In this document: one piece after another, positions 13,227 through 34,643 of the stretch
How positions within the stretch are numbered: position 1 is the stretch's first letter
How the letters are laid out: every line of letters starts with the position of its first letter
Assembly (NCBI GenBank): GCA_963575745.1
Contig: CAUYUJ010000289.1
Location: 1-64,000, forward strand
Length of the DNA: 64,000 nucleotides
Direction: 5' to 3'
DNA from: Prorocentrum cordatum
Lineage: Eukaryota
Translations under genes and position numbers: made by a program
Notes under the pieces: generated by a model
The model's database searches: none
Told to the model about the DNA's origin: nothing
The model's input: only the letters and a program-made list of their open reading frames with translations

Positions 13227-13410
13227 AGAGGAACCGCTACTGGCACAAACATAAACTTTCGGAGGTCCGCGCGGATTTCTCGGATCGGCGCTGGAGCACC
13301 TGAGCGCTGTCTCGTCGCCGCCCTTGGCGCGCTCCGCGAGCCAGGGAGGGGGATCCACCGCCGATCCAAGAAATCAGCGCGGACCTCCGAAAATGTTTGT
13401 GTGCTATTCC
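13227..13410. mobile_element. Palindromic MITE family C (other copies at about 6380-6552, 39990-40152, 40650-40780, 41803-41992, 49424-49621, 63520-63712)
   Basis: ggaggtccgcgcggatttc ... gaaatccgcgcggacctcc long inverted repeat, recurring through the window. Confidence 0.8.
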
Positions 13411-13689
13411 TCGATTTGGGAGGGGGCTTAGAACGGGAGACTGAAACGCAGCATCGTTGGTGCATCCTGGGTTTGACTCTGGCCCTCGCCCTGGCAAAGC
13501 ATCAGCAGAGGCATGTCTGTGTTCGGGCACAGGTCCTGCAACAAACAGAGAGGAAACTGGGGGCTCACCCAACCTCCCCCGACTCGTCAGGCCAGGTGCT
13601 CCTGTTTCGAGGGAGGGCCTCCCGTGCTCTGGCCCTCACCCTCCTCCTCCTCTTCTTCCTCCTCCTCCTCCTCCTCCTCCTCCTCCTCC

Positions 13690-13710
13690 CCGTAGCCATT
13701 TTGGCTCAAG
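13690..13710 (+). other. Dinoflagellate spliced-leader (DinoSL) relic at the 5' end of LINE-A
   Basis: CCGTAGCCATTTTGGCTCAAG is an exact match to 21 of the 22 nt of DCCGTAGCCATTTTGGCTCAAG. It follows a (CCT)n tract directly. Confidence 0.97.
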
Positions 13711-13911
13711 TCTCACGGATACCTCCCGTGGGTCCCGACTCCAGAGGCTCGAGGGCGAGGTGGAAGGGCAGCCCCTTCCATCAGGCCTGGCTGCCTCGCC
13801 CCAGGCTTTCAGCACGACGCTGTGCCAGCGCACGGCGGCTTTCCATCGCCCGAGGGGCTATCTCGCACTGCCCGTTCTCATCGGCTCAGTGTTTGTGATA
13901 GAAGTGGCGCG

Positions 13912-15126
13912 ATGGCTCGCAACAAGTATCTTGTGTGCCCATGGCATGGCTGCAGCGGCTGGGCCTGGGCCGACCGTGGTGCAACTCACTGCACCAAGTG
14001 TGGCGCGAAGCTCTCACACAAGAAGATGGGGCTCAACGACCCGCTCCCTGCAGGTGGTGGGCCATCCTCATCAACAACACGGGCAGTCTCCTGGGCACCG
14101 CCAGAAGATCGCAGCGATGGAGGACAGCAAGGACGAGGCCACGGGCGTTGGCGCCGTGGGAAGTCTCGAGGTCCGCCAGACACAGTGGCAGCTGACGGTC
14201 GTGGCGAACGTGACGGGGACAGGCCAAAACCAGCAGAAGCAGATCGTGCAGAGTCTGTTCCCAGCCCCGTCGAGTTGGCCCAGACCCAGGTCACTTTCTG
14301 GAAGCAGTGGAAGGGAGACAGTTCCAAGGAGTACAAGGATGCGGTCGAGGCTCTCAAGCAGGCGAAGCAACTCCTCTTACAAGAGAAGACACCTGATCAG
14401 CAAGCCCAGAGCCTCACGGACCAGCTCAACCAACAGAAGCGACGTCTGCAGCAGACAAAGAACACCGTCAACCAGCTTTCGCAGCAGCTGGCCTCCGTCG
14501 CGGAGAAGCAGCAGAAGGCGTTGGACGAGTACCAGCAGACCAGCGTGGAGGGGCAGCGGCTGCAGGCGCAGCTGCAGGTGGTGCAGCAGGCAGCCGCCCA
14601 GAAGGCATCCCAGGACGTGCCGATGGCGGAGGCCATCAAATCACTCATCGCAGGTCGCCCCAGCAAGCCGAAGGAATCGATATCACCTGAATTTGACAAG
14701 CATCTGGAGGCTGTCGTCGAAGCTCTGTCGCAGGTCGAGAAGGAACAGCACGCCGCCAAAGCAGCGCAAGAGGACAAGAAGGAGCCTGCCAACGGGGAGG
14801 ACAAGCCGAAGGAGAACGACCTCCAGCAGCCGAAGGAGGAGCAGTCCCCGGCCGAGGCAGCGCAGCCCCCAGCGGGCAGCCCACCTGCTCCCGTGGGAGA
14901 GCCGCCCAGTGCGGCAGGCGCCGAGGCCCCTGGCGCAGCGGCTTCTTCTGAGGATGCACAGATGGCGGAGGCGCGCAAGAGGGCCTTGGACCAGCTGCAG
15001 GAGGCTAACAAGTCGCTGGCGGCAGCGGGGCTCTCCAGCGAGGACGCCGCCAAGAGGCTCAAGGCCGCGGCCGAGAAGGTTGCCGCCGAGACTACGGAGA
15101 CGGCTGTGCCGAAGCAGCATTCCTAA
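13912..15126 (+). CDS. LINE-A ORF1 (404 aa): N-terminal Cys4 zinc-finger-like motif, Q/K/E-rich coiled coil, low-complexity tail
   Basis: ATG at 13912 (MARNKYLVCPWHGC...HCTKCG), heptad-rich middle region, TAA at 15124-26, positioned upstream of the APE-RT ORF. Confidence 0.85.
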   Translation: MARNKYLVCPWHGCSGWAWADRGATHCTKCGAKLSHKKMGLNDPLPAGGGPSSSTTRAVSWAPPEDRSDGGQQGRGHGRWRRGKSRGPPDTVAADGRGERDGDRPKPAEADRAESVPSPVELAQTQVTFWKQWKGDSSKEYKDAVEALKQAKQLLLQEKTPDQQAQSLTDQLNQQKRRLQQTKNTVNQLSQQLASVAEKQQKALDEYQQTSVEGQRLQAQLQVVQQAAAQKASQDVPMAEAIKSLIAGRPSKPKESISPEFDKHLEAVVEALSQVEKEQHAAKAAQEDKKEPANGEDKPKENDLQQPKEEQSPAEAAQPPAGSPPAPVGEPPSAAGAEAPGAAASSEDAQMAEARKRALDQLQEANKSLAAAGLSSEDAAKRLKAAAEKVAAETTETAVPKQHS

Positions 15127-18100
15127 CCAGTACAAGCTGACGGCCATCAATGGCAGTTGCTGGCCGCAGGTGAAGACCTTCATCAAGTCTGAGCTGGGCC
15201 AGCAGCCACGCATCATTTGCGCGCAGGGGTGCAAGCTGTGCCCCGAGCATTTCATCTCTCAGGCTTCTCAGTGGTGCCAACGTGAAGGTTGGCAAGCTTC
15301 TTTTCAAGCAGGCGCATGCAGCTCCACGGAACCCCCCTCGGCTGGAGTTTGCGTTCTGGTCAAACGCGGTTTCGATCTTGGAGTTCAGAATTTGGTCTTA
15401 CCTTCGAGGGCTCAGGATTTTGTTCCTCAGGGTCGTCTCGTGGGAGTTCGAGTGGAGTTGCCTGGGCTTGGAGTCGTGGGCATACCCTCAGTTTATTTGC
15501 AGGTCAGTGTTGGCTTGAATGAGACCAATTTAGGTATTTTAGCGGCAGCGGCAGTATTGCAGAATAATTTCCGTATTCCCATGCTTATAGCAGGAGACTA
15601 TAACATGAACCCTAACAAGCTCAGAGAGCATGATTATGTGCAGCGTGCTGGTATGTGTATTAGTGCTTCCTCTACACCCACTTATCGTACGAAGGATACG
15701 CAGTCGCAACTGGACTATTTTGTGTATAGCAAGTGTTTGGAGCATGTCTTGTCGGGACCACATGTACATGTCAAATATCCGCTGTCGCCGCGCCGCCCTG
15801 TCAGCACCAACATGCAGGCAGACGCAGGTTTCACCGTCCCAGTCTTGTGTAAGCCGCAGCGCCTGCCGACCAAGCCAGTATTTGGTCCCAAGTTGCCCGA
15901 GCGCGAGTGGCACGCGACGGAGGCCGCTCTGCAGGTCGCTGAGGCCATCGTCAATCGCAGCGTGGAACCACCCAGTCTGAGAGAAAAGCAGCGAGTGTTG
16001 GATCAGGTGTATCATTTTCTGGCCAGGGATTTGGAGGTTACGATAGCGGAGATTACCGACACGGTACTAAAACCAAGTTCTCGGCCCAGGGCCTGTCCTC
16101 CCAGGGTCAGGTGGGTACAAGCTCAGCAATTTCTGAAGGGGCATCGTGTTGAGTGGAAGTCGCATGCGGGGCCTCTGCGCTGGATGCGCAATGTGGTACA
16201 GCAGTTTTTCTTCAAGCTTCAGAAGTTGGACGCTGCTGAGTTGCAGCTCGTAGCCGACAGTCTGGAAGATCCCCCGCCAGAGTTCCAAGAGTCCGAGGCC
16301 CTACAGGAATGCCTTCTCAGCACCCATCAGGGCCTCCAGTTCCTCATCCTGGATATTCGAGCGGGGGTCCTGGACCCCGAGTTGGGTTTGGAAGCGTTGG
16401 ACGAGGTTTTGAATCACATCACTAAGCTGATTGGTAAGGAGATCGCTCTGGAGAAGCAAGAGGCCTATCGGGCCTGGCGGGGGTGGGTCCAGATAGGTAC
16501 TCAAGGTAGTGCTGGCTGGGCTCACAAGTGGGCCAAGAACCTGGAGGCCTGGGCTCCCCAAGCTGTTCCCTGGAAAGGTTCCTGGACTGGGCGCCCTTCG
16601 AAGGTTTTGGAGCATGAAGCTGTTCGACTTAGCCAACTTTGGGATGCCACCGACGAGAGGCCCCAGTTCGAAGTACCCCCCGGCCTTTTCGAGCCCCAGT
16701 TGCCCATGATAGAGCCCCAGCAGTTGATAGATGCAGCAGAGCAGTTCGCCCACGTGACGGCCTCTACGTGGGGCGGCTTTCACCCCGAGCATTTCCAGAG
16801 CCTGTCGCTTGACCAGGCCGACCTGGTCTGCCGCTTTTTGCACCTGGTCGAGTCCATCGGTGCGATGCCCAAGCAGTTGCAGGCAGTAGTTTCGGTGCTG
16901 ATCCCCAAGCAAAACAAATCCAAGGTGGCTCAGGCTTCAACGCAGTTCAGGGGGATCGGGATGATGCCAGGATTGTATCGCATCTGGTCCAAGGCCCGCC
17001 AGGGTGAAGCAATGAAATGGGAGTCAAAGCACCGGCGCAGCTTGCTGGCCCATCAGGCGGGCAAGAGTATCACGGAAGTTGTTTTTTTTCGGCAGAGTTT
17101 GAAGGCAGAGAATGGAGTGACTCGCCAAGAGACCCTGCATTCAGGCGCTGTGTTGTGGGACCTCAGCAACTACTATGAGTATATCAGCCACCGCAAGCTG
17201 ATAGAGAGGGCCCGCGCCACAGGTTTCAGCAGCAAGATTCTTAAGGTCATTTTAGCCCAGTACAGCAGCCAGCGACTGGTCGCCACCAGGGACTCAGTGC
17301 AGATGGTCAACCATCCGACGAGAGGGATTGTAGCGGGTTGCGGCTGGGCTACTTTTCGGGTTCAGGTCTATAGTTTGGGCCCCCTGGACAGCTGGAGCAA
17401 AAATAACCCTAGGGGCACGGATTTGCAGATGTTTATTGACGACCTATTCCTGGGGCAACAGCATCAAAATCAGGAGGCTCTGGTGCGACAGCTGCAACAC
17501 TCGGCGGCCAGGCTGGCAGTAATCATCCAGGACGATTTAGAGCGCAAGCTCGCGCTTCACAAAGCTCAGGTTATTGCGTCGAACCCTCGGCTCCGACAGA
17601 CAATCAGGAAAGCTCTTGGGAAGTACGCGGGCCCCGAGGACTCGCATGCGGCAACGAACCTAGGGATATATACTTCTGCAGGGGCGTCGAGGATTCTGGC
17701 AGGCTGGCCAAGGCTACTCTGTGCGAGCGGTTTGTTCGACATCGACATCGACGACATCGGATTCGCGCTATCAAGATAGCTGGGGGTGACACTCGGAAAC
17801 TTTGGAAGACAGGCCTCCAGCAGGCCATCACTTATGGTACGGAAGTTGTGGGAGTCGATCACGGTGAATTTTGAAGGCTTCAAACTGAATGCCTCAGAAC
17901 AGCCGGCCCCAGATGCGCTACGCGAAGTAGGTCACTCAGTTTGGCAGTGCTTGGAGACCCATCGTGGCGTGCAGGCTTGGGACCAGTACTCACATGGGCG
18001 ACGATGATATGGCGTGCTGCCACCCAGCCGTCACACCCGCGTGAACTTCTTGAGCTGAAGGGCCTGGCCGAACCTATTTTAGCATCCCCCCCCCCCAAGT

Positions 18101-19845
18101 AAGTGGGCAGCCGAAAGAGGCCCCTTTGGGGCCGCCTACCTCTCCCTCAAGTGGATAGGTTGGAGTTTTGCTTCTGTTCTGGAATTGCAGGACGAGAACG
18201 GGCTAACATACCCGCTCACGACTTGCACGCCGAAGATGATGGCCCAGAAAATGCAAGCAGCCTGGGATAGGCTCAACTTGCGCAAAGCTGCTCAGAAACT
18301 AGGCTATCCCCAGGAGACCCTCGATGTTTCAATTGCCCGAGCCATGATAGACGGTAAGAGTTTAACTAAGAAGGCCAGGTCCACGCTCGTCTGCTTTCTC
18401 ACACAGTGCATCTGGACGCGGACTCGACTGCGTCAAGCAGGATATGAAGTTGAGGAGGCTTGCCAATGCGGAGCCCAGCAGGATACTTTAAAGCGTCGTT
18501 TGCTGGAGTGTAGCCTCTCAGCCCAGTTGCGCGAAGAAATGGAGTTTACTGCGGACGAGCTGGGTCAGATAAGTAACCTTTCAGACCAGGTCCTGGCCTT
18601 CGGTTTTCGGTTTTCACCTGCTTTTGACTCGGGGGTCCTGCTGGATTCGGCTACGAATATGCGGACTTTTGGAGTCGGGACCCATCCCTCTCGCAACAAG
18701 AAGCTTTCTCGGATGAAGTTTTCACGGACGGCTCCTGCTTTAAGCCAGGGGCCCAATGCTACAACCTAGCGGGATGGTCTATGGTGGCCATCGATGGGCA
18801 CGGTGAAGTCTCGGCTTATATGACGGGGCGTGTGGGCAACCTCCTTCCTCCTACCTCCCCTGCTGCTGAGCGCTGCGGTGTGCTTGCTGCTGCTCTGAAT
18901 GCCTCCCCGCACGCCCAGATTTTTGTAGACTATAAAGGAGCTATTGCTGTGCACCAGAAAGCCACAGTTTTCTCGGTCCGACTTTTGACGGGGCCTTTAA
19001 GGTCCTGGCTAGGGCCAGTATGGCCCCCATCGGCCCCAGGCTCCACAAAATCAAAGCGCATGTGGATATCGAATCTTTGACCCCAGGCAGCGAGGAGTGG
19101 CGACGAGCTAAAGGCAACGACGCTGCTGATCGATATGCGAAGATAGCCGCTGCCAGGGGTTCCCAGTTAAGTACTAATGAACTTGAGCAACAGGTTGCTC
19201 AGGCGGCTCTTTTAAATAATTACTTCAGATATGTTTCAGAAGCCCTCCAGATCTGGCCTGCGGTAGCTCCGAAGGCTGGATCAAAAGGACTTTGCCGAGC
19301 CAGAGAAAAGTTTGAACCCACCCGTGGGAGCGGCCGCAGCTCAGCCCGCCTGGGGACAAGAGGTGCCTCCTCCTCCGCGTCCTCCTCCTCCTCCCCCGTC
19401 GGTTCCTGGGGACGAGCTTGCAATGCCCAGGCGGGCACATCAGTGGCATAAATGGGGCAATGGGTGGCTGTGCGCTGTGTGTCGTCAGAGGTCGGCCTCG
19501 GACCATGCTTTGAAGCGCCGCGAAAAGGAACAGCGCCCTGGTTTTTGTGCCCACCACCATGAGCTGCTGGCCAATCCACGAGGCCATAAACCGATGTTTC
19601 TTGGGTATCTTGATGATAGACCCTCGAGTATAATTATGTGCTGGAAGTGCGGCTCGTTCACAGAAGGAACCCGTGGCCTCAGAGGTGAATGTTCCCCGCC
19701 TGCAAATGGACGCTTGTTGCAACGACAGCGAGCGGGGGAAGGACGGCACCCCAAAGGCACGGCGAGCTCGCCCATTTTGTTGAAGCCTCCGATCCCGCTG
19801 GCCCAGCTAGTGAGAGAATTGGAGGCGATGAGCTCTGCTGCTTAA
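15122..19845 (+). pseudogene. LINE-A ORF2 (APE endonuclease, reverse transcriptase, zinc motif, RNase H, Cys/His domain), frameshifted after about 17700
   Basis: APE: LTAING, IICAQG, VYL, IAGDYN, PTY, LDYF. RT: LIPK, FRGIG, WDLSNYYE, GIVAGC, MFIDD, NLGI. Zinc motif: CQCG. RNase H: FTDGS (18721), AAE, FVD, KIKAH, GNDAADRYAK. C-terminus: CAVC, CWKCG. Several frameshifts; APE catalytic E appears as G and H as R. Confidence 0.92.
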
Positions 19846-20519
19846 CGTGGCAAGAGCTCCAGAGACAATCGGGAGTCACCCCAATCTGAGCGCTGGTCCT
19901 CCTCCTCCTCCTTTTGACGTTGCGCGAACTTGATGCAACAGCATGGAGCGTTAAAGGATGCACGACAGAAAAAGAGGAACGCCGACATAGCGGTGTGGAA
20001 AAACAAATCAGACCCAGCTCAGCTGGCGCAGCAGAAGAAACAAACAGGAAAAGAAGGGGGCCCAAAGGGCACATCGTATGCGCCAGCCAGGCGGTCTGCG
20101 AGGAGGAGGGAACGAACGACCGAAAACCTCAGTAAAAACCATAATGATCAAGAGGGATCCGTCCTCCTCCTCCTCCGCGGTGCCCTGGGGCCCTCGTGTC
20201 CGAGGAGGGCCCCGAGGCGGCGGACCACGAGCGCGGACGCGCCGCGCGCCGCGCCGCGCCCGCGCGCACCGGGCCCGCGTCCGCCGCCTCCTCCTCCTCC
20301 TCCTCCTCCTCCTCCTCCTCCTCCTCCTCCTCTTCCTCCTCCTCATCCTCCTTCTCCTCCTCGTGCTCCTCCTGCGCCTCCTCCTCCTCCTCCTCCTCCT
20401 CATCCTGCCGCGCCGCGTCCTCCTCCTCATCCTGCGCCTCGTCCTGCTGCTCCTCCCTCTCCCGCCCCGGCCTCCCTGCGCCGACGCTCCGGCGCGGTGC
20501 CTGAGAGCCCCCCCTGCAG

Positions 20520-21855: not shown

Positions 21856-22461
21856 GCCGATGCGGCCCGACTAGACGCCCGGTCCGATCCGACTTTAGTT
21901 TCTGAATTTGTGCCGACCGCTCTCGCCCACGCTGGCTGCCGTTGCCACGCCCAAGATGGGCGGCGCGCGGCGCGTAGATGGTCTCGGGGGCAACGACCGG
22001 AGGGGATAGGCATAGGGGGGGATGCATCGCCCCTCAGTCGCCCACTGATCTCCGACATGGGCCCGATGGCCCCAGCCTGCCCAGGAGGGTGCGGACTCGC
22101 TATCGGAGGCCTCTCGCCGATCTATCGGCGATGTAACGCCGATGCCAGGTCGATGCGTCCCCCCCTTTATGCCAGTCCCCCCGCTAATCTCCGACGAAGG
22201 CATCTATACACCACCACCGTGCCAGACCAGGGCCATCCTGGGCCGCAGGACGGTGTATAGACCCTCCTGGCTCGGCCAGGAGGGCGTATACACCATCCTG
22301 GGGCCCAGGATGGCCCTGGCCTGGCACGGTGGTGGTGTATATATACATATATACTTTTCCCCCAACCATCCTGTGGTGTTGGGTCCTCGTTTTGAAGAGA
22401 CGGTCCCCGCGTTCCTTCTCCTCCTTCTCCTCCTCCTGCTCGTCGCCCTCCTCCCTCCAGG

Positions 22462-26632: not shown

Positions 26633-28288
26633 TATGACAGAGCGTGTTCTACCGCTGCTGGCGAAAAACCGGGGGGTTCCCATCCCGCCCCCCCCCCACC
26701 CCTCGAAAACCGGGGGGGGGTCACTACCGGTTCGAACCCCTCCCCCCCCCAGTCCATCATGAAAAGGGGGGGGGTCACTACGGTTCGACCCCCCCCCCCT
26801 CCCCCCCTCGAAAACGGGGGGGGGGGGTCACTACTGGTTCGACCCCCCCGCACCCCCTCGCCGCTGGCAAACGATTCCCGCTCCTCGTGACAGTTGGACA
26901 ATGGTGGGGATACTGGGACAGTGGTGGGAACGGTGGTGTCGGGGACAGTGGTGCGGGGACAGTGGGACAGAGGTGCGGACAGTGGTGGGGACGGTGGTGG
27001 TGGGGACAGTGGTGAGATGACAGCGGGACACTGGTGGGGACAGTGGGACAGTGGTGGGGACGGTAGTGGTGGGGAGAGTGGTGAAGGCGGTGGTGAGAAC
27101 AGTGGTGGGACAGTGGTACGGTGGGGAGTGGTGGGGACAGTGGGGACAGTGGGACAGTGGTGGGGACAGTGGGGACGGTGGGACAGCACAGTGGGACAGC
27201 GGCGGGGACAGTGGGACAGTGGTGGGTACAGTGGGGACAGTGGGACAGTGGTGGGGACCGTGGGGAAAGTGGGGAGAGTGGGACCGTGGTGGGACAATGG
27301 TGGGGAGAGTGGGGACAGTGAGACACTGGTGGGGGCACTGGTGGGGACAGCGGGGACAATGGTGGGAACAGTGGGGACAGTGGGACAGTGGTGGGGACGG
27401 TGGTGGTGGGGACAGTGGTGTGGGGACAGTGGGAATGTGGTGGAAACAGTGGGACAGTGGAGGGTACAGTGGTGGTGGGGACAGTGGTGAGGGCGGTGGC
27501 GAGGACGGCGGTGGGACAATGGGACAGAGGTACAGTGGGGACAGTGGTGGGGACAGTGGGGACAGTGGTGGGAACAGTGGGACAGCTCAGTGGGACAGCG
27601 GCGGGGACAGTGGGACAGTGGGGACAGTGGGACAGTGGTTGGGGCCGTGGGGAAAGTGGGGAGAGTGGAACCGTGGTGGGAACAGTGGTGGGGACAGTGG
27701 GGACAGTGCGACAGTGGTGGGGGCACTGGTGGGGACAGTGGGGACGGTGGTGGGAATAGTGGGGACAGTGGTGGTGAGGACAGTGGTGCTGGGGACAGCA
27801 GTGGGGGATGTGGTGCGGACGGTGGTAGGGACCCGGGAGTCGTTTGCTGGGCGGTGAGCGTGGGGGGGGATGGGCGGGGGAGGGGTTTCGAACCAGTAGT
27901 GACTTCCGCCGGTTTTCTGGAGGGGGTGGTGGTGGGGTTCGAACTGGTAGTGACCCCCCTCCGGTTTTCCTGGAGGAGGGGGGCTTGAGAGGGGTTTGAA
28001 CCAGTAGTGACCTCCCCTGGTTTTCTGGGGGGGGAAGGTTCGAACCGGTAGTGACACACCCCCCCTGTTTTCCGGAGGGGGGGGAGGGGGGGGGTTCGAA
28101 CCGGTAGTGACCCCCCCCGGTTTTCCGGAAAGGGTTTTGCCGGGGGGAAGGGGGGGGGGGGGCGAGGGGGGGGGTCCAGCTGGGGGGGTGGGGGTGATTT
28201 TCGGAGGGCGGGGGGGTGGGCCCGGGTTCCGGAGGAAGAGGGGGGGAATTTTCCACAGTAGAGCGGCGGTGGATCACGCTCTCTCATA
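26633..28288. mobile_element. 1.65-kb non-autonomous TIR element with inverted subterminal repeats and an internal GGGACAGT minisatellite
   Basis: Ends tatgacagagcgtgttctaccgc / gcggtggatcacgctctctcata. gtcactaccggttcgaaccc repeats on the left and their reverse complement on the right. Sits in TA-rich microsatellite. Confidence 0.75.
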
Positions 28289-28700
28289 CATATTTGTATA
28301 TATATATATATATATAAACGATTATGTATGTATGCGTAGATATATGCATGTATGTATGTATGCATGCATGTATATAGTTGTATATATATATATATGTATA
28401 TACAAGTGGCACGTGTGTGCCCAGGCTCATACAAAAAGAAGACACCATGACTGCAGGATCGGAGATGGAGAAGGGGATGCTGGGGCGGCGCCGCCAGGGC
28501 GTGCCTAACAGAAGGGGAAGAGGCAGGAGATGAACGCAGAAGAATTTAAAATCGAGGTCGCACTCGAGCGCAGGTGGGGTTGCCACACCTTGCGATGTGT
28601 GTGTACCAGGGCCCCCCAGGAAACCTCAAGAGGCCCGACTTGGATACCGGAAGAGGCTCCAGGAGGCCCCGGGATTGTGAGTGTTGTGTGTGTGTGTGTG

Positions 28701-30065: not shown

Positions 30066-30510
30066 TTATCATCATCATCATCATCAGCATCACCATCATT
30101 AGCATCCTCCTCATCATCTTCATCAATCTCATCATGAACACCGTCAGTATCAGCATTCGCATCATCAGCATTATCATCATCATTATCATCATCATCACCA
30201 CCGCCATCACCAGCACCAGCATCATCATCATCATCAACATCATCATCAGCATCATCCTCCTCCTCATCATCATCAAACGCATCAGCATCAGCATCAGCAT
30301 CATCACCAGCATCATCATCGTCATCATTATTATCATCACCACCATCAGCATCATCATCATCATCATCCTCATCATCATCACCACCATCACCATCTCCACC
30401 ATCATCATTATCAGCATCATCATCATCACCAACACCATCACCATCATCGTCATCATTATCAACAACATCATCATCATAATCAACATCGTCATCATAACCA
30501 CCATCATCAT
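30066..30510. repeat. (CAT)n microsatellite left of LINE-B (continues at 32061-32290)
   Basis: Direct reading. Confidence 0.95.
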
Positions 30511-30531
30511 CCGTAGCCATTTTGGCTCAAG
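30510..30531 (+). other. DinoSL relic at the 5' end of LINE-B
   Basis: TCCGTAGCCATTTTGGCTCAAG, a complete 22-nt match, directly following (CAT)n. Confidence 0.97.
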
Positions 30532-30674
30532 TTGGAACCATTGCTCCGTGGCTCCAGCTTGGGAGCAGCCAAGGAGCAGATCGAGGGTTCTTGGCAGACA
30601 GGCTGCCTGCGGCTCTCTGTATCCCTTTCCCACCGAGTGCATACCCTCTCCGCCCCTCTCCCGGCCCTGCCGCG

Positions 30675-31575
30675 ATGTCGGTCGATATGGCCGCGATCCA
30701 AGCCATGCTCGATGCCCAGCTCGTGAAGATCGAGAAAACCATAGATGATAAACTCGAGGCGAAAGTCTCGGGATTAGCAGCTACTGTTGGAGTCCAAGGT
30801 CAGATGCTGAAAGAGATCACCGACCGCCTTGAGAAGTCAGAGACCCGTCTCAACGCCATGGAACAGATGGCTCAGATGAGCCCCCGTCAGCCGCCCTTTG
30901 TCAACAGTCAGGGAGGTAAGCGCCGTGCAGTCGACAGCTCTGTCGGGGACGGGTCCACTACGGGAGGGAGTGCAGGAGGAGGATCGTCGCTTGAGGATGC
31001 CCACCGTCTTCTCATCCTTGGGTTCCAGGATCGGTTGATGGCCACCACTCTCGAGAGGGTTGCGAAGGGCATTATCTCTAAGTGTGCGACTGGGCAGGCA
31101 GCAAGTCTCATTCGGATTCGGGCCTATGATCTCCAGAAGAAAGTTACTTTGGATTTCCCTACCCCGGCCATGGCTTCGGACTTCCAGATGAATTTCAGGA
31201 AGCTGAGTGAGAGCTACAGCATGGTTAACCCACGTAATCAGCAGGATGTGTGGCCCCCTTCGTGTTCGTCGTAACTGGTCTCCTCAACATCGGCTTCTCT
31301 TCTGCAAGATGGGAAAAATACGGGGTGCGGTTCAGGAAGAGCTCTCAAAAGTTGGTTTGCAGGCCAATTCTAATGGGATCAGCGGTGACGTCTTCGGCCT
31401 TCGCTCGCGGGAAGACCCTGTTCCTCTTTTTCGCCTCACCTGCTGCCCCCAGAACTCTGATGTGATCCACCTTCGCCCTGACGATGCAGGTCTTAACGCT
31501 CTTGGACTGAACACCCCAGAGATCCGTGAGAAATTCGAGGCTGCGTTTGCCACTGAGCCCACGCGTCCCTTTTGA
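30675..31575 (+). pseudogene. LINE-B ORF1 (coiled coil plus RRM-like region), one frameshift near 31250
   Basis: MSVDMAAIQAML..., coiled coil (LKEITDRLEKSETRLNAME), RLLILGF...VTLDF. Continues in the +1 frame as PLRVRRN...TRPF*. Confidence 0.72.
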
Positions 31576-31809
31576 AGATGAATCGAGCAGGATAGGCCGC
31601 CCTGGGGACCAAATGTTTCCGTCTCTCCCAGGGGCCTCTCTGAACTTTTTGGCGGGTGCTCTCCGCGCCCGAGAAGGGAGGATCGAGTTTAATCTTTCCT
31701 CCAGTTTTGTTGCCAGGAGCTCGAGCCGTTCCGACTCCGACTCGAGCTCGTCTTCGCCCAGTGGGGGTCTGCCCGCTGAATCGTCGCTTTCCTTTCCCCC
31801 CCCCCTTCC

Positions 31810-32055
31810 TGCTCTCTGTCTCTGCTCACTTGGAACTCTAGGGGACTCTTCGCTTCCATTCATCACTCCTCTCTTCGGGCCACACGACGGTACAAACAGC
31901 TTCTGGGATTGTCTCGGCGTTCCAGTATTCTGTGCGTTCAAGAGACCCACGGCACGGCTGGCGATGCAGCGGCGCTCCAGTCCGATCTGCAAGGTTGGTC
32001 GATTGGATTCTCAGGACATACCTCGGACATTGCTGGTGGTGTTCTCACGCTGAAA
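31810..32055 (+). pseudogene. LINE-B ORF2 N-terminus (APE endonuclease fragment)
   Basis: LLTWNSRGL (W at 31831) ... ILCVQETH ... GGVLTL, which are classic N-terminal APE motifs. Truncated at aaaaatat plus the TSD. Confidence 0.9.
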
Positions 32056-32106
32056 AATATTCATAACCACCATCATCATCATCATCAGCGTCATCATCAT
32101 CATCAG

Positions 32107-34543: not shown

Positions 34544-34643
34544 NNNNNNNNNNNNNNNNNNNNNNNNNNNNNNNNNNNNNNNNNNNNNNNNNNNNNNNNN
34601 NNNNNNNNNNNNNNNNNNNNNNNNNNNNNNNNNNNNNNNNNNN
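34544..34643. other. Scaffold gap (100 N)
   Basis: Run of N following a GGA tract. Confidence 1.

What the first reader, a model, noticed from the sequence alone, without database searches (positions are those of the whole stretch)
13640..19911. Spliced-leader-headed LINE in a (CCT)n tract: candidate promoter-less retrotransposon that regenerates its 5' end by trans-splicing
Seen: a full-length APE-RT-RNase H LINE begins exactly with DinoSL (13690-13710), directly after about 50 bp of (CCT)n. It ends without poly(A) at (TCC)5, consistent with a TSD of up to 15 bp. It lies sense to the host gene, inside an intron. A second, unrelated LINE (30510) has the same layout in (CAT)n. Established: DinoSL is trans-spliced onto dinoflagellate mRNAs, so the copied RNA was a trans-spliced mRNA; SL relics are known from dinoflagellate retrogenes. 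Inference: the integrated SL ends in AG and the CCT target gives it a polypyrimidine tract, so each insertion creates its own trans-splice acceptor. Host read-through RNA could then be recapped at the identical nucleotide with no internal promoter. This would play the role the 5' self-cleaving ribozyme plays in R2-type elements. Only one SL is present rather than a stack, which fits reuse of the relic AG. The CC/TCC at the SL start also offers microhomology to the target.
Basis: partly seen in the sequence, partly recalled or inferred. Interest (0 to 1): 0.92.

Follow-up and report, generated by a model that had tools for sequence, protein, structure and literature searches.

The report
Spliced-leader-headed LINE copy in a microsatellite
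A decayed dinoflagellate LINE retrotransposon begins exactly with the host spliced leader, so it was copied from a trans-spliced mRNA, but nothing here shows that the leader lets it restart itself.

Summary
The core observation holds. An exact 21-nt DinoSL (13690-13710) sits between a (CCT)n tract and a 6.2-kb APE-RT-zf-RNase H LINE. The LINE ends without poly(A) at (TCC)5, matching the 15 nt before the SL. This copy is dead: ORF2 has 5 frameshifts and 1 stop. The family is multi-copy and diverged in a DNA run. The "second LINE" (30511) is a 1.55-kb SL-headed 5' fragment with an exact 19-nt TSD and only weak APE evidence. No host gene, intron or RNA could be shown.

Two more SL-headed LINEs turned up in environmental contigs. 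L182 has a non-repeat flank. L246 is ORF-intact, has an A5 tail and lies inside (AG)n.

In 101 environmental genomic DinoSL copies, a simple repeat lies directly upstream in 21%, against 1.1% at random positions. The repeats are of any type (AT, GT, CAT, CT, AG), and the cargo is mostly ordinary genes. The microsatellite context is therefore a general integration signature, not a purpose-built polypyrimidine acceptor. A single SL is also the majority state (104 of 118).

Best reading: a TPRT retrocopy of a trans-spliced LINE mRNA. Regeneration of the 5' end through the relic AG is plausible but untested. I found no paper passage describing SL-headed LINEs.

The parts
13634..13689 (+). (CCT)n target microsatellite upstream of the element. 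Its last 15 nt (13675-13689, TCCTCCTCCTCCTCC) are the candidate 5' copy of the target-site duplication.
13690..13710 (+). DinoSL relic, 21 of the 22 SL nucleotides. Position 1 is absent; the base before it is C.
   Evidence: exact match, 0 expected by chance
13711..13911 (+). 5' UTR of the LINE
   Evidence: No known RNA family. The first 45 nt fold no better than shuffles (z 0.68).
13912..15126 (+). ORF1, 404 aa, with a Cys/His-rich N-terminus and then a Q/K/E-rich stretch
   Evidence: an open frame starting at an ATG; no Pfam family
15128..17776 (+). ORF2, first frame piece: AP endonuclease and reverse transcriptase
   Evidence: weak Pfam. (2412 relatives at E<=1e-3). (profile positions 29-876, E 3e-300; the profile includes this sequence).
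17440..19845 (+). The rest of ORF2 in six further frame pieces: RT end, zf-RVT, RNase H and a Cys-rich C-terminus. It is broken by 5 frameshifts and a stop at 17872-17874.
   Evidence: indels relative to other copies
19846..19896 (+). 3' UTR, 51 nt, with no poly(A)
   Evidence: A contig of run X2 ends at 19899 (table 8, record 16).
19897..19911 (+). (TCC)5, the candidate 3' copy of the target-site duplication, followed by unique sequence
30492..30510 (+). 5' copy of the 19-nt TSD (TCATAACCACCATCATCAT) of the second SL-headed element
   Evidence: the only two exact copies in the window are at the two junctions
30511..32060 (+). Second SL-headed retrocopy: SL (30511-30531), 5'UTR, a 199-aa ORF (30675-31271) and about 90 aa of APE-like N-terminus (31780-32049). 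It is 3'-truncated and ends gaaaaatat.
32061..32079 (+). 3' copy of the 19-nt TSD of the second element

Best explanation
Positions 13690-19896 are a dead, full-length genomic copy of a dinoflagellate non-LTR retrotransposon with ORF1 and an APE-RT-zf-RNase H ORF2. It was made by reverse transcription of an mRNA that had received the DinoSL by trans-splicing.

SHOWN. The cDNA reached the 5' end of the RNA, so the SL became the first 21 nt of the insertion. Integration was into a (CCT)n microsatellite, with the same 15 nt on both sides.

INFERRED. The integration mechanism was target-primed reverse transcription. The SL is a by-product of the host's general mRNA processing, exactly as in DinoSL-tagged retrogenes. 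The microsatellite context reflects a general target bias of SL-tagged retrocopies in dinoflagellates, not a device of this element. This particular copy can no longer encode ORF2.

INFERRED, ABOUT 0.3-0.4. For the family to persist, some SL-headed copies must be transcribed from upstream and trans-spliced again at or near the relic. Which AG they use, and whether any promoter lies in or near the relic, is not shown.
For: - The exact SL occurs at the boundary of both window elements and nowhere else in the window.
- TSDs are present: 15 nt of TCC repeat for element 1 and an exact, non-trivial 19 nt for element 2.
- LINE identity: 2412 relatives at E<=1e-3. Full-length relatives of about 1550-1570 aa lie on 5-6.4-kb contigs and carry Exo_endo_phos, RVT_1, zf-RVT and RNase_H. 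The profile matches are colinear in the window.
- The family is multi-copy and diverged. 1136 contig pieces of DNA run X1 cover all 30 bins, split 44 / 242 / 497 / 353 at >=99 / 95-99 / 90-95 / <90 % identity.
- Independent SL-headed LINEs exist. L182 has an APE of the same clade about 2.1 kb after the SL (hmmsearch E 6e-27; hhalign 98.8 %). L246 has the layout (AG)n | SL | ORF1 | 2536-aa open frame with APE and RT-RNase H (E 5.7e-73, no stops) | AAAAA | (AG)n.
- The integration signature is general. A simple repeat lies directly upstream of 21 of 101 environmental genomic SL copies, against 22 of 2030 random positions in the same contigs. The cargo is mostly ordinary genes: PP1, a cGMP kinase, arginine kinase, MORN, EF-hand and HMG-box proteins.
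- The base before the SL is T in 92 of 118, the published first SL base, so cDNAs usually reach the RNA 5' end.
Against: - Element 1 has no poly(A) or A-run at its 3' end, unlike a typical polyadenylated mRNA copy. L246 has A5, and element 2 ends in an A-rich stretch.
- The 15-nt TSD of element 1 lies in a microsatellite, so its true length, or even its existence, cannot be fixed.
- TPRT is inferred from the long TSDs only. Capture of cDNA at broken simple repeats is not excluded.
- The 5' junctions of other copies of this family could not be seen. The read tool masked 13625-13700. No relative was found in viral, metagenome or genome collections.
Confidence: 0.85

Rival explanations
1. The LINE has no promoter. 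Each insertion creates its own trans-splice acceptor from the relic's terminal AG plus the pyrimidine-rich target. Host read-through RNA is then recapped at the identical nucleotide, regenerating the 5' end in every generation.
For: - Every LINE copy descends from a chain of RNA copies. A family with copies from <85 to >99 % identity whose mRNA 5' end is the SL therefore needs some way to rebuild that end.
- 0 of 4 SL-headed LINEs carry a stacked relic.
- One of them, L246, is ORF-intact.
- Contig depth in run X1 is higher near the element's 5' end, at 13780, than over its body (134 against about 20-40). The tool warns that this depth is not a copy number.
Against: - The upstream repeats are of any type. 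They include purine (AG)n at the intact L246, and L182 has a non-repeat flank.
- A pyrimidine-rich upstream region occurs in only 1 of 101 genomic SLs.
- A single SL is the majority state generally (104 of 118), so 0 of 4 is uninformative.
- Relics in transcripts are mostly the 15-nt form made by the internal AG (PMC12014239, passages). In element 1 that AG lies 5 nt after the tract and comes first.
- No RNA data, no host gene and no orientation were shown.
Confidence: 0.25
2. Master-copy model. SL-headed copies are dead on arrival, like most retrocopies. A few source copies with their own upstream promoter or outron and a native acceptor make all the RNA.
For: - This copy is decayed, and element 2 is a truncated fragment.
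- Papers describe Symbiodiniaceae LINEs as mostly old and diverged (PMC10235124 and bioRxiv 10.1101/783902, passages).
Against: - Sources must themselves be retrocopies, so over the long activity implied by the identity spread some SL-headed copy must have become a source.
- L246 is SL-headed and ORF-intact.
Confidence: 0.3
3. The relic SL acts as a promoter element. A published proposal for retrogenes invokes its T-rich TTT(G) core. Under this model SL-headed LINEs would carry a minimal promoter with them.
For: The proposal and its arguments are in PMC6050394 (passages). The SL relic is intact, 21 of 21, in a copy that differs from the laid contigs at some 400 reported positions over the 7-kb stretch laid.
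Against: - If those roughly 400 positions are taken as about 6.5 % divergence (my estimate), 21 of 21 is expected about one time in four by chance.
- A start site downstream of the relic would not rebuild the same junction.
- Nothing was tested here.
Confidence: 0.1
4. The cDNA was captured during repair of breaks at fragile simple repeats, not inserted by endonuclease-initiated TPRT.
For: - The association with simple repeats of many types.
- Element 2 is 3'-truncated.
- Element 1 has no A-tail.
Against: - The exact 19-nt TSD of element 2 and the matching 15 nt of element 1 are typical of staggered nicks.
- The family encodes an AP endonuclease.
Confidence: 0.1
5. A site-specific LINE that targets SL RNA genes (SLACS, CZAR or NeSL-1 type), or simply an SL RNA gene next to a LINE.
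For: Only that an SL sequence adjoins a LINE.
Against: - The whole SL lies on one side only.
- It is followed by T, not by a GT intron.
- Upstream is a microsatellite, and downstream of the element the same microsatellite resumes.
- Rfam finds no SL RNA family there.
- Four elements lie in four different targets.
Confidence: 0.01

Closest known systems
DinoSL-relic retrogenes, or 'mRNA recycling' (Slamovits and Keeling 2008, recalled; PMC6050394, PMC12014239 and PMC7245778, passages seen)
   Same: The SL is copied into the genome at the 5' end of a retrocopy. Such copies are known to be re-expressed and trans-spliced again.
   Different: Here the cargo is the retrotransposon itself, the likely source of the reverse transcriptase. 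The copies show no stacked relic. A preprint even states that DinoSL-relict genes and RT genes do not overlap and calls the two processes independent (10.1101/783902, passage).
SL-gene-specific LINEs: SLACS, CZAR and CRE of trypanosomatids, and NeSL-1 of C. elegans (recalled)
   Same: A LINE physically next to spliced-leader sequence in a trans-splicing organism.
   Different: Those elements insert at a fixed site inside SL RNA genes, so their SL is target DNA. Here the SL is part of the copied RNA, and the targets are assorted microsatellites.
R2-type elements with a 5' self-cleaving HDV-like ribozyme (recalled)
   Same: Both would be co-transcribed with host DNA, and RNA processing would define their 5' end.
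   Different: No ribozyme family matches here. No co-transcript was shown. The processing would be done by the host's trans-splicing machinery.
Microsatellite-specific R1-clade LINEs: Waldo, Mino, Kibi, Koshi and Dong (recalled)
   Same: Insertion inside simple repeats, with the repeat on both sides.
   Different: Those families each use one repeat type. Here four elements use (CCT)n, a CAT-rich tract, (AG)n and one non-repeat site. Gene retrocopies show the same bias with many repeat types.
L1Tc/ingi with the Pr77 internal promoter (PMC1874656 and PMC8190864, search-listing abstracts only)
   Same: LINEs in an organism that trans-splices its mRNAs.
   Different: By those abstracts Pr77 drives unspliced transcripts from an internal promoter. 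Here the copied RNA carried the SL.
dinoRNAV endogenous viral elements with a relict dinoSL (PMC10235124, passages)
   Same: A non-host cargo tagged with DinoSL and thought to be integrated by LINE machinery.
   Different: The cargo there is an RNA-virus gene, and the LINEs are only neighbours.

Membership tests
Non-LTR (LINE) retrotransposon with APE, RT and RNase H | AP-endonuclease domain at the N-terminus of ORF2 | tested here: met
   This copy scores Exo_endo_phos E 5.1e-4, below the cutoff. The profile of 14 relatives matches colinearly. Relative P0007 passes the Pfam cutoff.
Non-LTR (LINE) retrotransposon with APE, RT and RNase H | Reverse transcriptase domain | tested here: met
   RVT_1 E 5.9e-6, 26.6 bits against a cutoff of 29.6. 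There are 192 relatives at E<=1e-30. Relative P0030 scores RVT_1 at 50.5 bits. D771 and D772 of the window ORF2 are invariant in all 14 aligned sequences, within the alignment consensus YIDD.
Non-LTR (LINE) retrotransposon with APE, RT and RNase H | RNase H domain after the RT | tested here: met
   This copy has no Pfam hit. Its piece 18628-19077 matches profile positions 1200-1321. At the matching place relatives P0002, P0030 and P0064 have RNase_H, and P0030 scores above the cutoff.
Non-LTR (LINE) retrotransposon with APE, RT and RNase H | Target-site duplication of variable length | tested here: inconclusive
   The same 15 nt lie on both sides, but within a TCC repeat. The second element has a clear, exact 19-nt TSD.
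Non-LTR (LINE) retrotransposon with APE, RT and RNase H | 3' poly(A) or simple-repeat tail | tested here: not met
   The element ends ...gagcgctgg directly before the (TCC)5. The relative L246 has AAAAA. Many LINE clades lack poly(A) (recalled), so this does not exclude membership.
Non-LTR (LINE) retrotransposon with APE, RT and RNase H | Multiple dispersed copies | tested here: met
   1136 contig pieces at 85-100 % identity over the whole stretch laid, in DNA run X1. There is no second copy in the window.
DinoSL-tagged retrocopy | DinoSL sequence at the 5' boundary of the inserted sequence | tested here: met
   An exact 21 nt at 13690-13710, abutting the duplicated target.
DinoSL-tagged retrocopy | Re-expression with a new SL, seen as stacked 15-nt relics | tested here: not met
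   No relic follows the SL. No RNA run was available to test expression.
SL-RNA-gene-specific LINE (SLACS / NeSL type) | Insertion at a fixed site within an SL RNA gene, with SL gene sequence on both sides | tested here: not met
   The flanks are microsatellite on both sides. No SL RNA family is found.
SL RNA gene | SL exon followed by a GT intron with the rest of the SL RNA | tested here: not met
   The SL is followed by TCTCACGG and a LINE 5'UTR. There is no Rfam hit.
Ribozyme-processed co-transcribed LINE (R2-like) | Self-cleaving ribozyme at the 5' end | tested here: not met
   No ribozyme family appears at E<=0.1 in 12500-33000. The 5' 45 nt do not fold better than shuffles.

The most novel reading that the evidence does not exclude
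Dinoflagellate LINEs of this APE-RT-RNase H clade have no promoter of their own. They ride on read-through transcription. The host's SL trans-splicing at the relic's terminal AG rebuilds their exact 5' end in every generation. The same machinery, with the same preference for simple repeats, is the long-sought engine of the massive gene retroposition in dinoflagellates.
Probability: 0.3. Interest if true: 0.8.

Novelty: new variant of a known kind. Interest (0 to 1): 0.55.

Why it matters
Dinoflagellate genomes are shaped by retroposition of SL-tagged mRNAs, but the papers I read say the enzyme source is unknown. PMC6050394 favours LTR elements, and one preprint calls retroposition and retrotransposition independent processes.

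LINEs that carry the same SL tag, long TSDs and the same simple-repeat target bias as gene retrocopies link the two. They point to this LINE clade as the likely engine. They also raise a testable question of general interest for transposon biology: how does a LINE keep its 5' end in an organism where every mRNA 5' end is a trans-spliced leader?

If the relic AG is reused, this would be a new way for a promoter-less LINE to define its 5' end. It would be analogous in role to the R2 ribozyme.

Tried and rejected
- **Whole genome:** none is held.
- **RNA evidence:** no RNA holder was listed, so expression and the RNA junction could not be examined.
- **Read laying:** the tool masked 13625-13700 and 19364-19404, so the SL junction in other copies could not be seen. 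One contig of the metagenome run X2 joins 13475 to 19893 with only 20 nt on one side. It does not fall at the TSD boundaries, and I treat it as spurious.
- **Other copies of the family:** none in the window. None in viral contigs by ORF1 or an ORF2 alignment. None in metagenome contigs by alignment A2. No blastn hit in any fetched locus. None in genome contigs for the 21-nt 5'UTR start.
- **Word-index protein searches:** nothing for ORF2, for the frame that reads through the SL or for the APE-like piece of element 2.
- **Earlier findings of this scan:** none.
- **Host gene:** Pfam on 111 other long ORFs gave only low-complexity chance hits.
- **Conserved 5' motif or hairpin after the SL:** the alignment of four 5'UTRs shows no convincing conservation. 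Fold z-scores are 0.68, -1.96, -0.63 and -0.64. Rejected.
- **Recurrence of the upstream repeat downstream of other retrocopies:** most contigs were too short. Only 1 of 11 simple-repeat cases and 2 of 48 others recurred.
- **Literature:** six full-text searches plus passages from ten papers found no statement that dinoflagellate LINEs begin with DinoSL. Supplements were not read and could hold such data.
Full report
**What is there**

The window is GC-rich (58 %) and full of simple repeats. (AGG)n-like tracts cover 2966 nt and (CCT)n-like tracts 769 nt of the + strand. The 21-nt DinoSL core CCGTAGCCATTTTGGCTCAAG occurs exactly twice, at 13690-13710 and 30511-30531, both on the + strand. There are no further matches at up to 3 mismatches, and none are expected by chance. 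The 15-nt relic form has no further copy beyond chance either.

**Element 1 (13690-19896)**

- *Upstream flank:* the SL follows directly on (CCT)n at 13634-13689.
- *Layout:* after the SL come a 201-nt 5'UTR, ORF1 (13912-15126, 404 aa, no Pfam family) and ORF2.
- *ORF2 identity:* on this copy Pfam gives only sub-threshold RVT_1, Exo_endo_phos and zf-RVT hits. An exhaustive phmmer search finds 2412 relatives at E<=1e-3 and 192 at E<=1e-30. Full-length forms of about 1550-1570 aa lie on contigs of 5-6.4 kb. They carry Exo_endo_phos, RVT_1, zf-RVT and RNase_H.
- *ORF2 state:* a profile of 14 sequences (A1) matches the window colinearly over positions 29-1542, but in seven frame pieces. That means five frameshifts and one in-frame stop at 17872. 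Contigs of other copies carry indels at 17696 (+7), 18086 (-4), 18957 (-1) and 18987 (-1), which fit these frame changes. The copy is full-length in extent but dead.
- *3' end:* the element ends ...gagcgctgg with no A-run. It is followed by TCCTCCTCCTCCTCC (19897-19911), identical to 13675-13689, and then by unique sequence.

**Element 2 (30511-32060)**

It holds the SL, a 5'UTR, a 199-aa ORF and about 90 aa that align to the first 73 positions of the Exo_endo_phos profile (E 1.2e-3, below cutoff). Against profile A1 the same piece scores E 7e-3. It stops at ...gctgaaaaatat. An exact 19-nt duplication, TCATAACCACCATCATCAT, flanks it, and its only two exact copies in the window are at the two junctions. 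This is the cleanest evidence in the window that an SL-bearing RNA was copied to its 5' end and integrated with a long TSD. Its LINE identity is probable but weak: two protein searches found nothing.

**What could not be confirmed**

- No host gene, intron or orientation could be shown. None of 111 other long ORFs has a credible Pfam domain.
- No whole genome is held.
- No RNA run holds the stretch.

**The family**

DNA run X1 gave 1136 contig pieces over all 30 bins of 13300-20300. Their identities split 44 / 242 / 497 / 353 at >=99, 95-99, 90-95 and <90 %. The family is therefore multi-copy and diverged. Depth near the 5' end was 134 at 13780, against roughly 20-40 over the body and 1.5-3 at 19150-19617. 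The tool warns that this depth is not a copy number. It also masked 13625-13700, so the SL junction of other copies stayed invisible.

**Is this peculiar to the window?**

Exact-pattern scans gave an outside sample.

These hold 118 distinct GC-rich SL occurrences.
- *Base before the SL:* T in 92, C in 14, G in 11 and A in 1. The pattern excluded A at the targeted site.
- *Stacking:* a stacked 15-nt relic follows the SL in 14 of 118.
- *Upstream repeats:* the 30 nt upstream are a simple repeat (period <=6, self-match >=0.7) in 21 of 101, against 22 of 2030 random positions in the same contigs. The repeats are (AT)n, (GT)n, (CAT)n, (CT)n, (GGGT)n, (CAA)n, (GA)n and others. One further case, L138, lies in a 10-mer minisatellite.
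- *Pyrimidine content:* the upstream 30 nt average 0.51 pyrimidine, and only 1 of 101 reaches 0.8 or more.
- *Cargo:* downstream ORFs are mostly ordinary genes, namely PP1 phosphatase, a cGMP-dependent kinase, arginine kinase, MIPS, and MORN, EF-hand, HMG-box, CBM20 and DnaJ proteins. One encodes a viral RdRP.

**Two more SL-headed LINEs**

- *L182:* the SL is followed about 2.1 kb later by an APE of the same clade (hmmsearch E 6e-27; hhalign 98.8 %). Its 75 nt of visible flank are not repetitive.
- *L246:* this is a contaminant contig in a bacterial MAG record. Its layout is (AG)n | SL | ORF1 (231-1343) | a 2536-aa open frame without stops holding APE and RT-RNase H (E 5.7e-73) | ...cgcagggtAAAAA | (AG)n.
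- *How common:* of 16 GC-rich loci in L001-L239 with 2.2 kb or more downstream, only L182 matched the profile. Of the 9 genome-contig loci, only L246 did. This is a lower bound, because the APE can start more than 4.7 kb after the SL.

**Reading**

The SL-headed state is real and recurs in four LINE lineages, one of them intact. The simplest account is that LINE mRNAs, like other dinoflagellate mRNAs, receive the SL, and that full-length cDNAs carry it into the genome. The microsatellite context is shared with SL-tagged gene retrocopies and is not tied to repeat type. It is therefore best read as a target bias of the integration process. TPRT is inferred from the 15-19-nt TSDs and the encoded endonuclease. 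Capture at broken repeats is a minor rival.

This shared signature links the LINEs to gene retroposition. In the papers I read, the engine is called unknown or assigned to LTR elements (PMC6050394, passages). One preprint called the two processes independent (10.1101/783902, passage).

The logical core is sound. A LINE whose mRNA 5' end is an SL must somehow rebuild that end if SL-headed copies are ever sources. But the specific supports fail or do not discriminate:

- A polypyrimidine target is not general. L246 sits behind purine (AG)n.
- A single SL is the common state of all genomic SLs.
- The published relic form points to the internal AG of the SL as a frequent acceptor (PMC12014239, passages). 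That route would give stacks.
- No ribozyme or SL RNA family is present.
- No conserved 5' motif or unusual fold follows the SL.

I put the full model at about 0.25-0.3 and a master-copy alternative at about 0.3. Neither was tested.

**Novelty**

SL relics on retrogenes and on viral inserts are well known. In six full-text searches and passages from ten papers I found no statement that LINEs themselves are SL-headed or that SL-tagged retrocopies prefer simple repeats. Supplements were not read. I rate this a new variant of a known kind, of moderate interest.

Noticed in passing
L001-L119 (IMG/VR contigs, mostly giant-virus MAG bins): The exact DinoSL occurs 126 distinct times, nearly all on AT-rich contigs. 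Each copy follows a conserved AT-rich motif of about 45 nt, for example TTGATAAATCAATTTTTTATT...TA. In 78 of 87 cases an ATG-started ORF of 80 aa or more begins 0-136 nt downstream (median 45.5). The ORFs include DUF4116 repeat, RING, NADAR and ABC proteins. These look like giant-virus genes that encode the host spliced leader at their transcript 5' ends. The titles and abstract openings of one literature search showed no such report.
   Followed up: partly
L120-L248 (metagenome and genome contigs): Genomic DinoSL retrocopies of ordinary genes lie directly behind simple repeats about 19 times more often than random positions do (21 of 101 against 22 of 2030). The repeats are of any type. L138 is an HMG-box retrocopy of about 800 nt inside a 10-mer minisatellite.
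   Followed up: yes
L246 / L249 (9096-nt contig filed under a bacterial MAG): This is a GC-rich (0.73) dinoflagellate-type contig consisting of one ORF-intact, SL-headed LINE of about 8.9 kb between (AG)n tracts. It is evidently contamination of the bacterial bin.
   Followed up: yes
window 13316-13392: A stretch of about 75 nt just upstream of the element has a very high summed contig depth in both DNA runs (7373 in X1, 1354 in X2). Loose ends lie on both sides, so it is a separate high-copy short repeat.
   Followed up: no
window 13768-19617: Contig depth over the LINE is highest near the 5' end (134 at 13780) and lowest at 19150-19617 (1.5-3). This is the reverse of the usual 5'-truncation profile of LINEs, and element 2 is also a 5'-only fragment. 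The tool warns that depth is not a copy number.
   Followed up: no
L058: The contig begins with the DinoSL, followed by a 788-aa ORF with a viral RdRP_1 domain. It resembles the SL-bearing dinoRNAV transcripts described in PMC10235124.
   Followed up: no
L241, L243: The 23-nt search pattern (the SL core with one flanking letter on each side) also occurs inside long bacterial MAG contigs (5.3 Mb and 209 kb). By my rough estimate about 0.6 chance matches are expected in that collection, so these may be chance or chimeras.
   Followed up: no
window, whole: There is a strong strand asymmetry of the trinucleotide tracts: 32 (AGG)n-like against 12 (CCT)n-like tracts on the + strand. A 100-N assembly gap lies at 34544-34643. 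Rfam gives only sub-threshold miRNA-like matches in repeats at 22204-22342 and 28284-28425.
   Followed up: no
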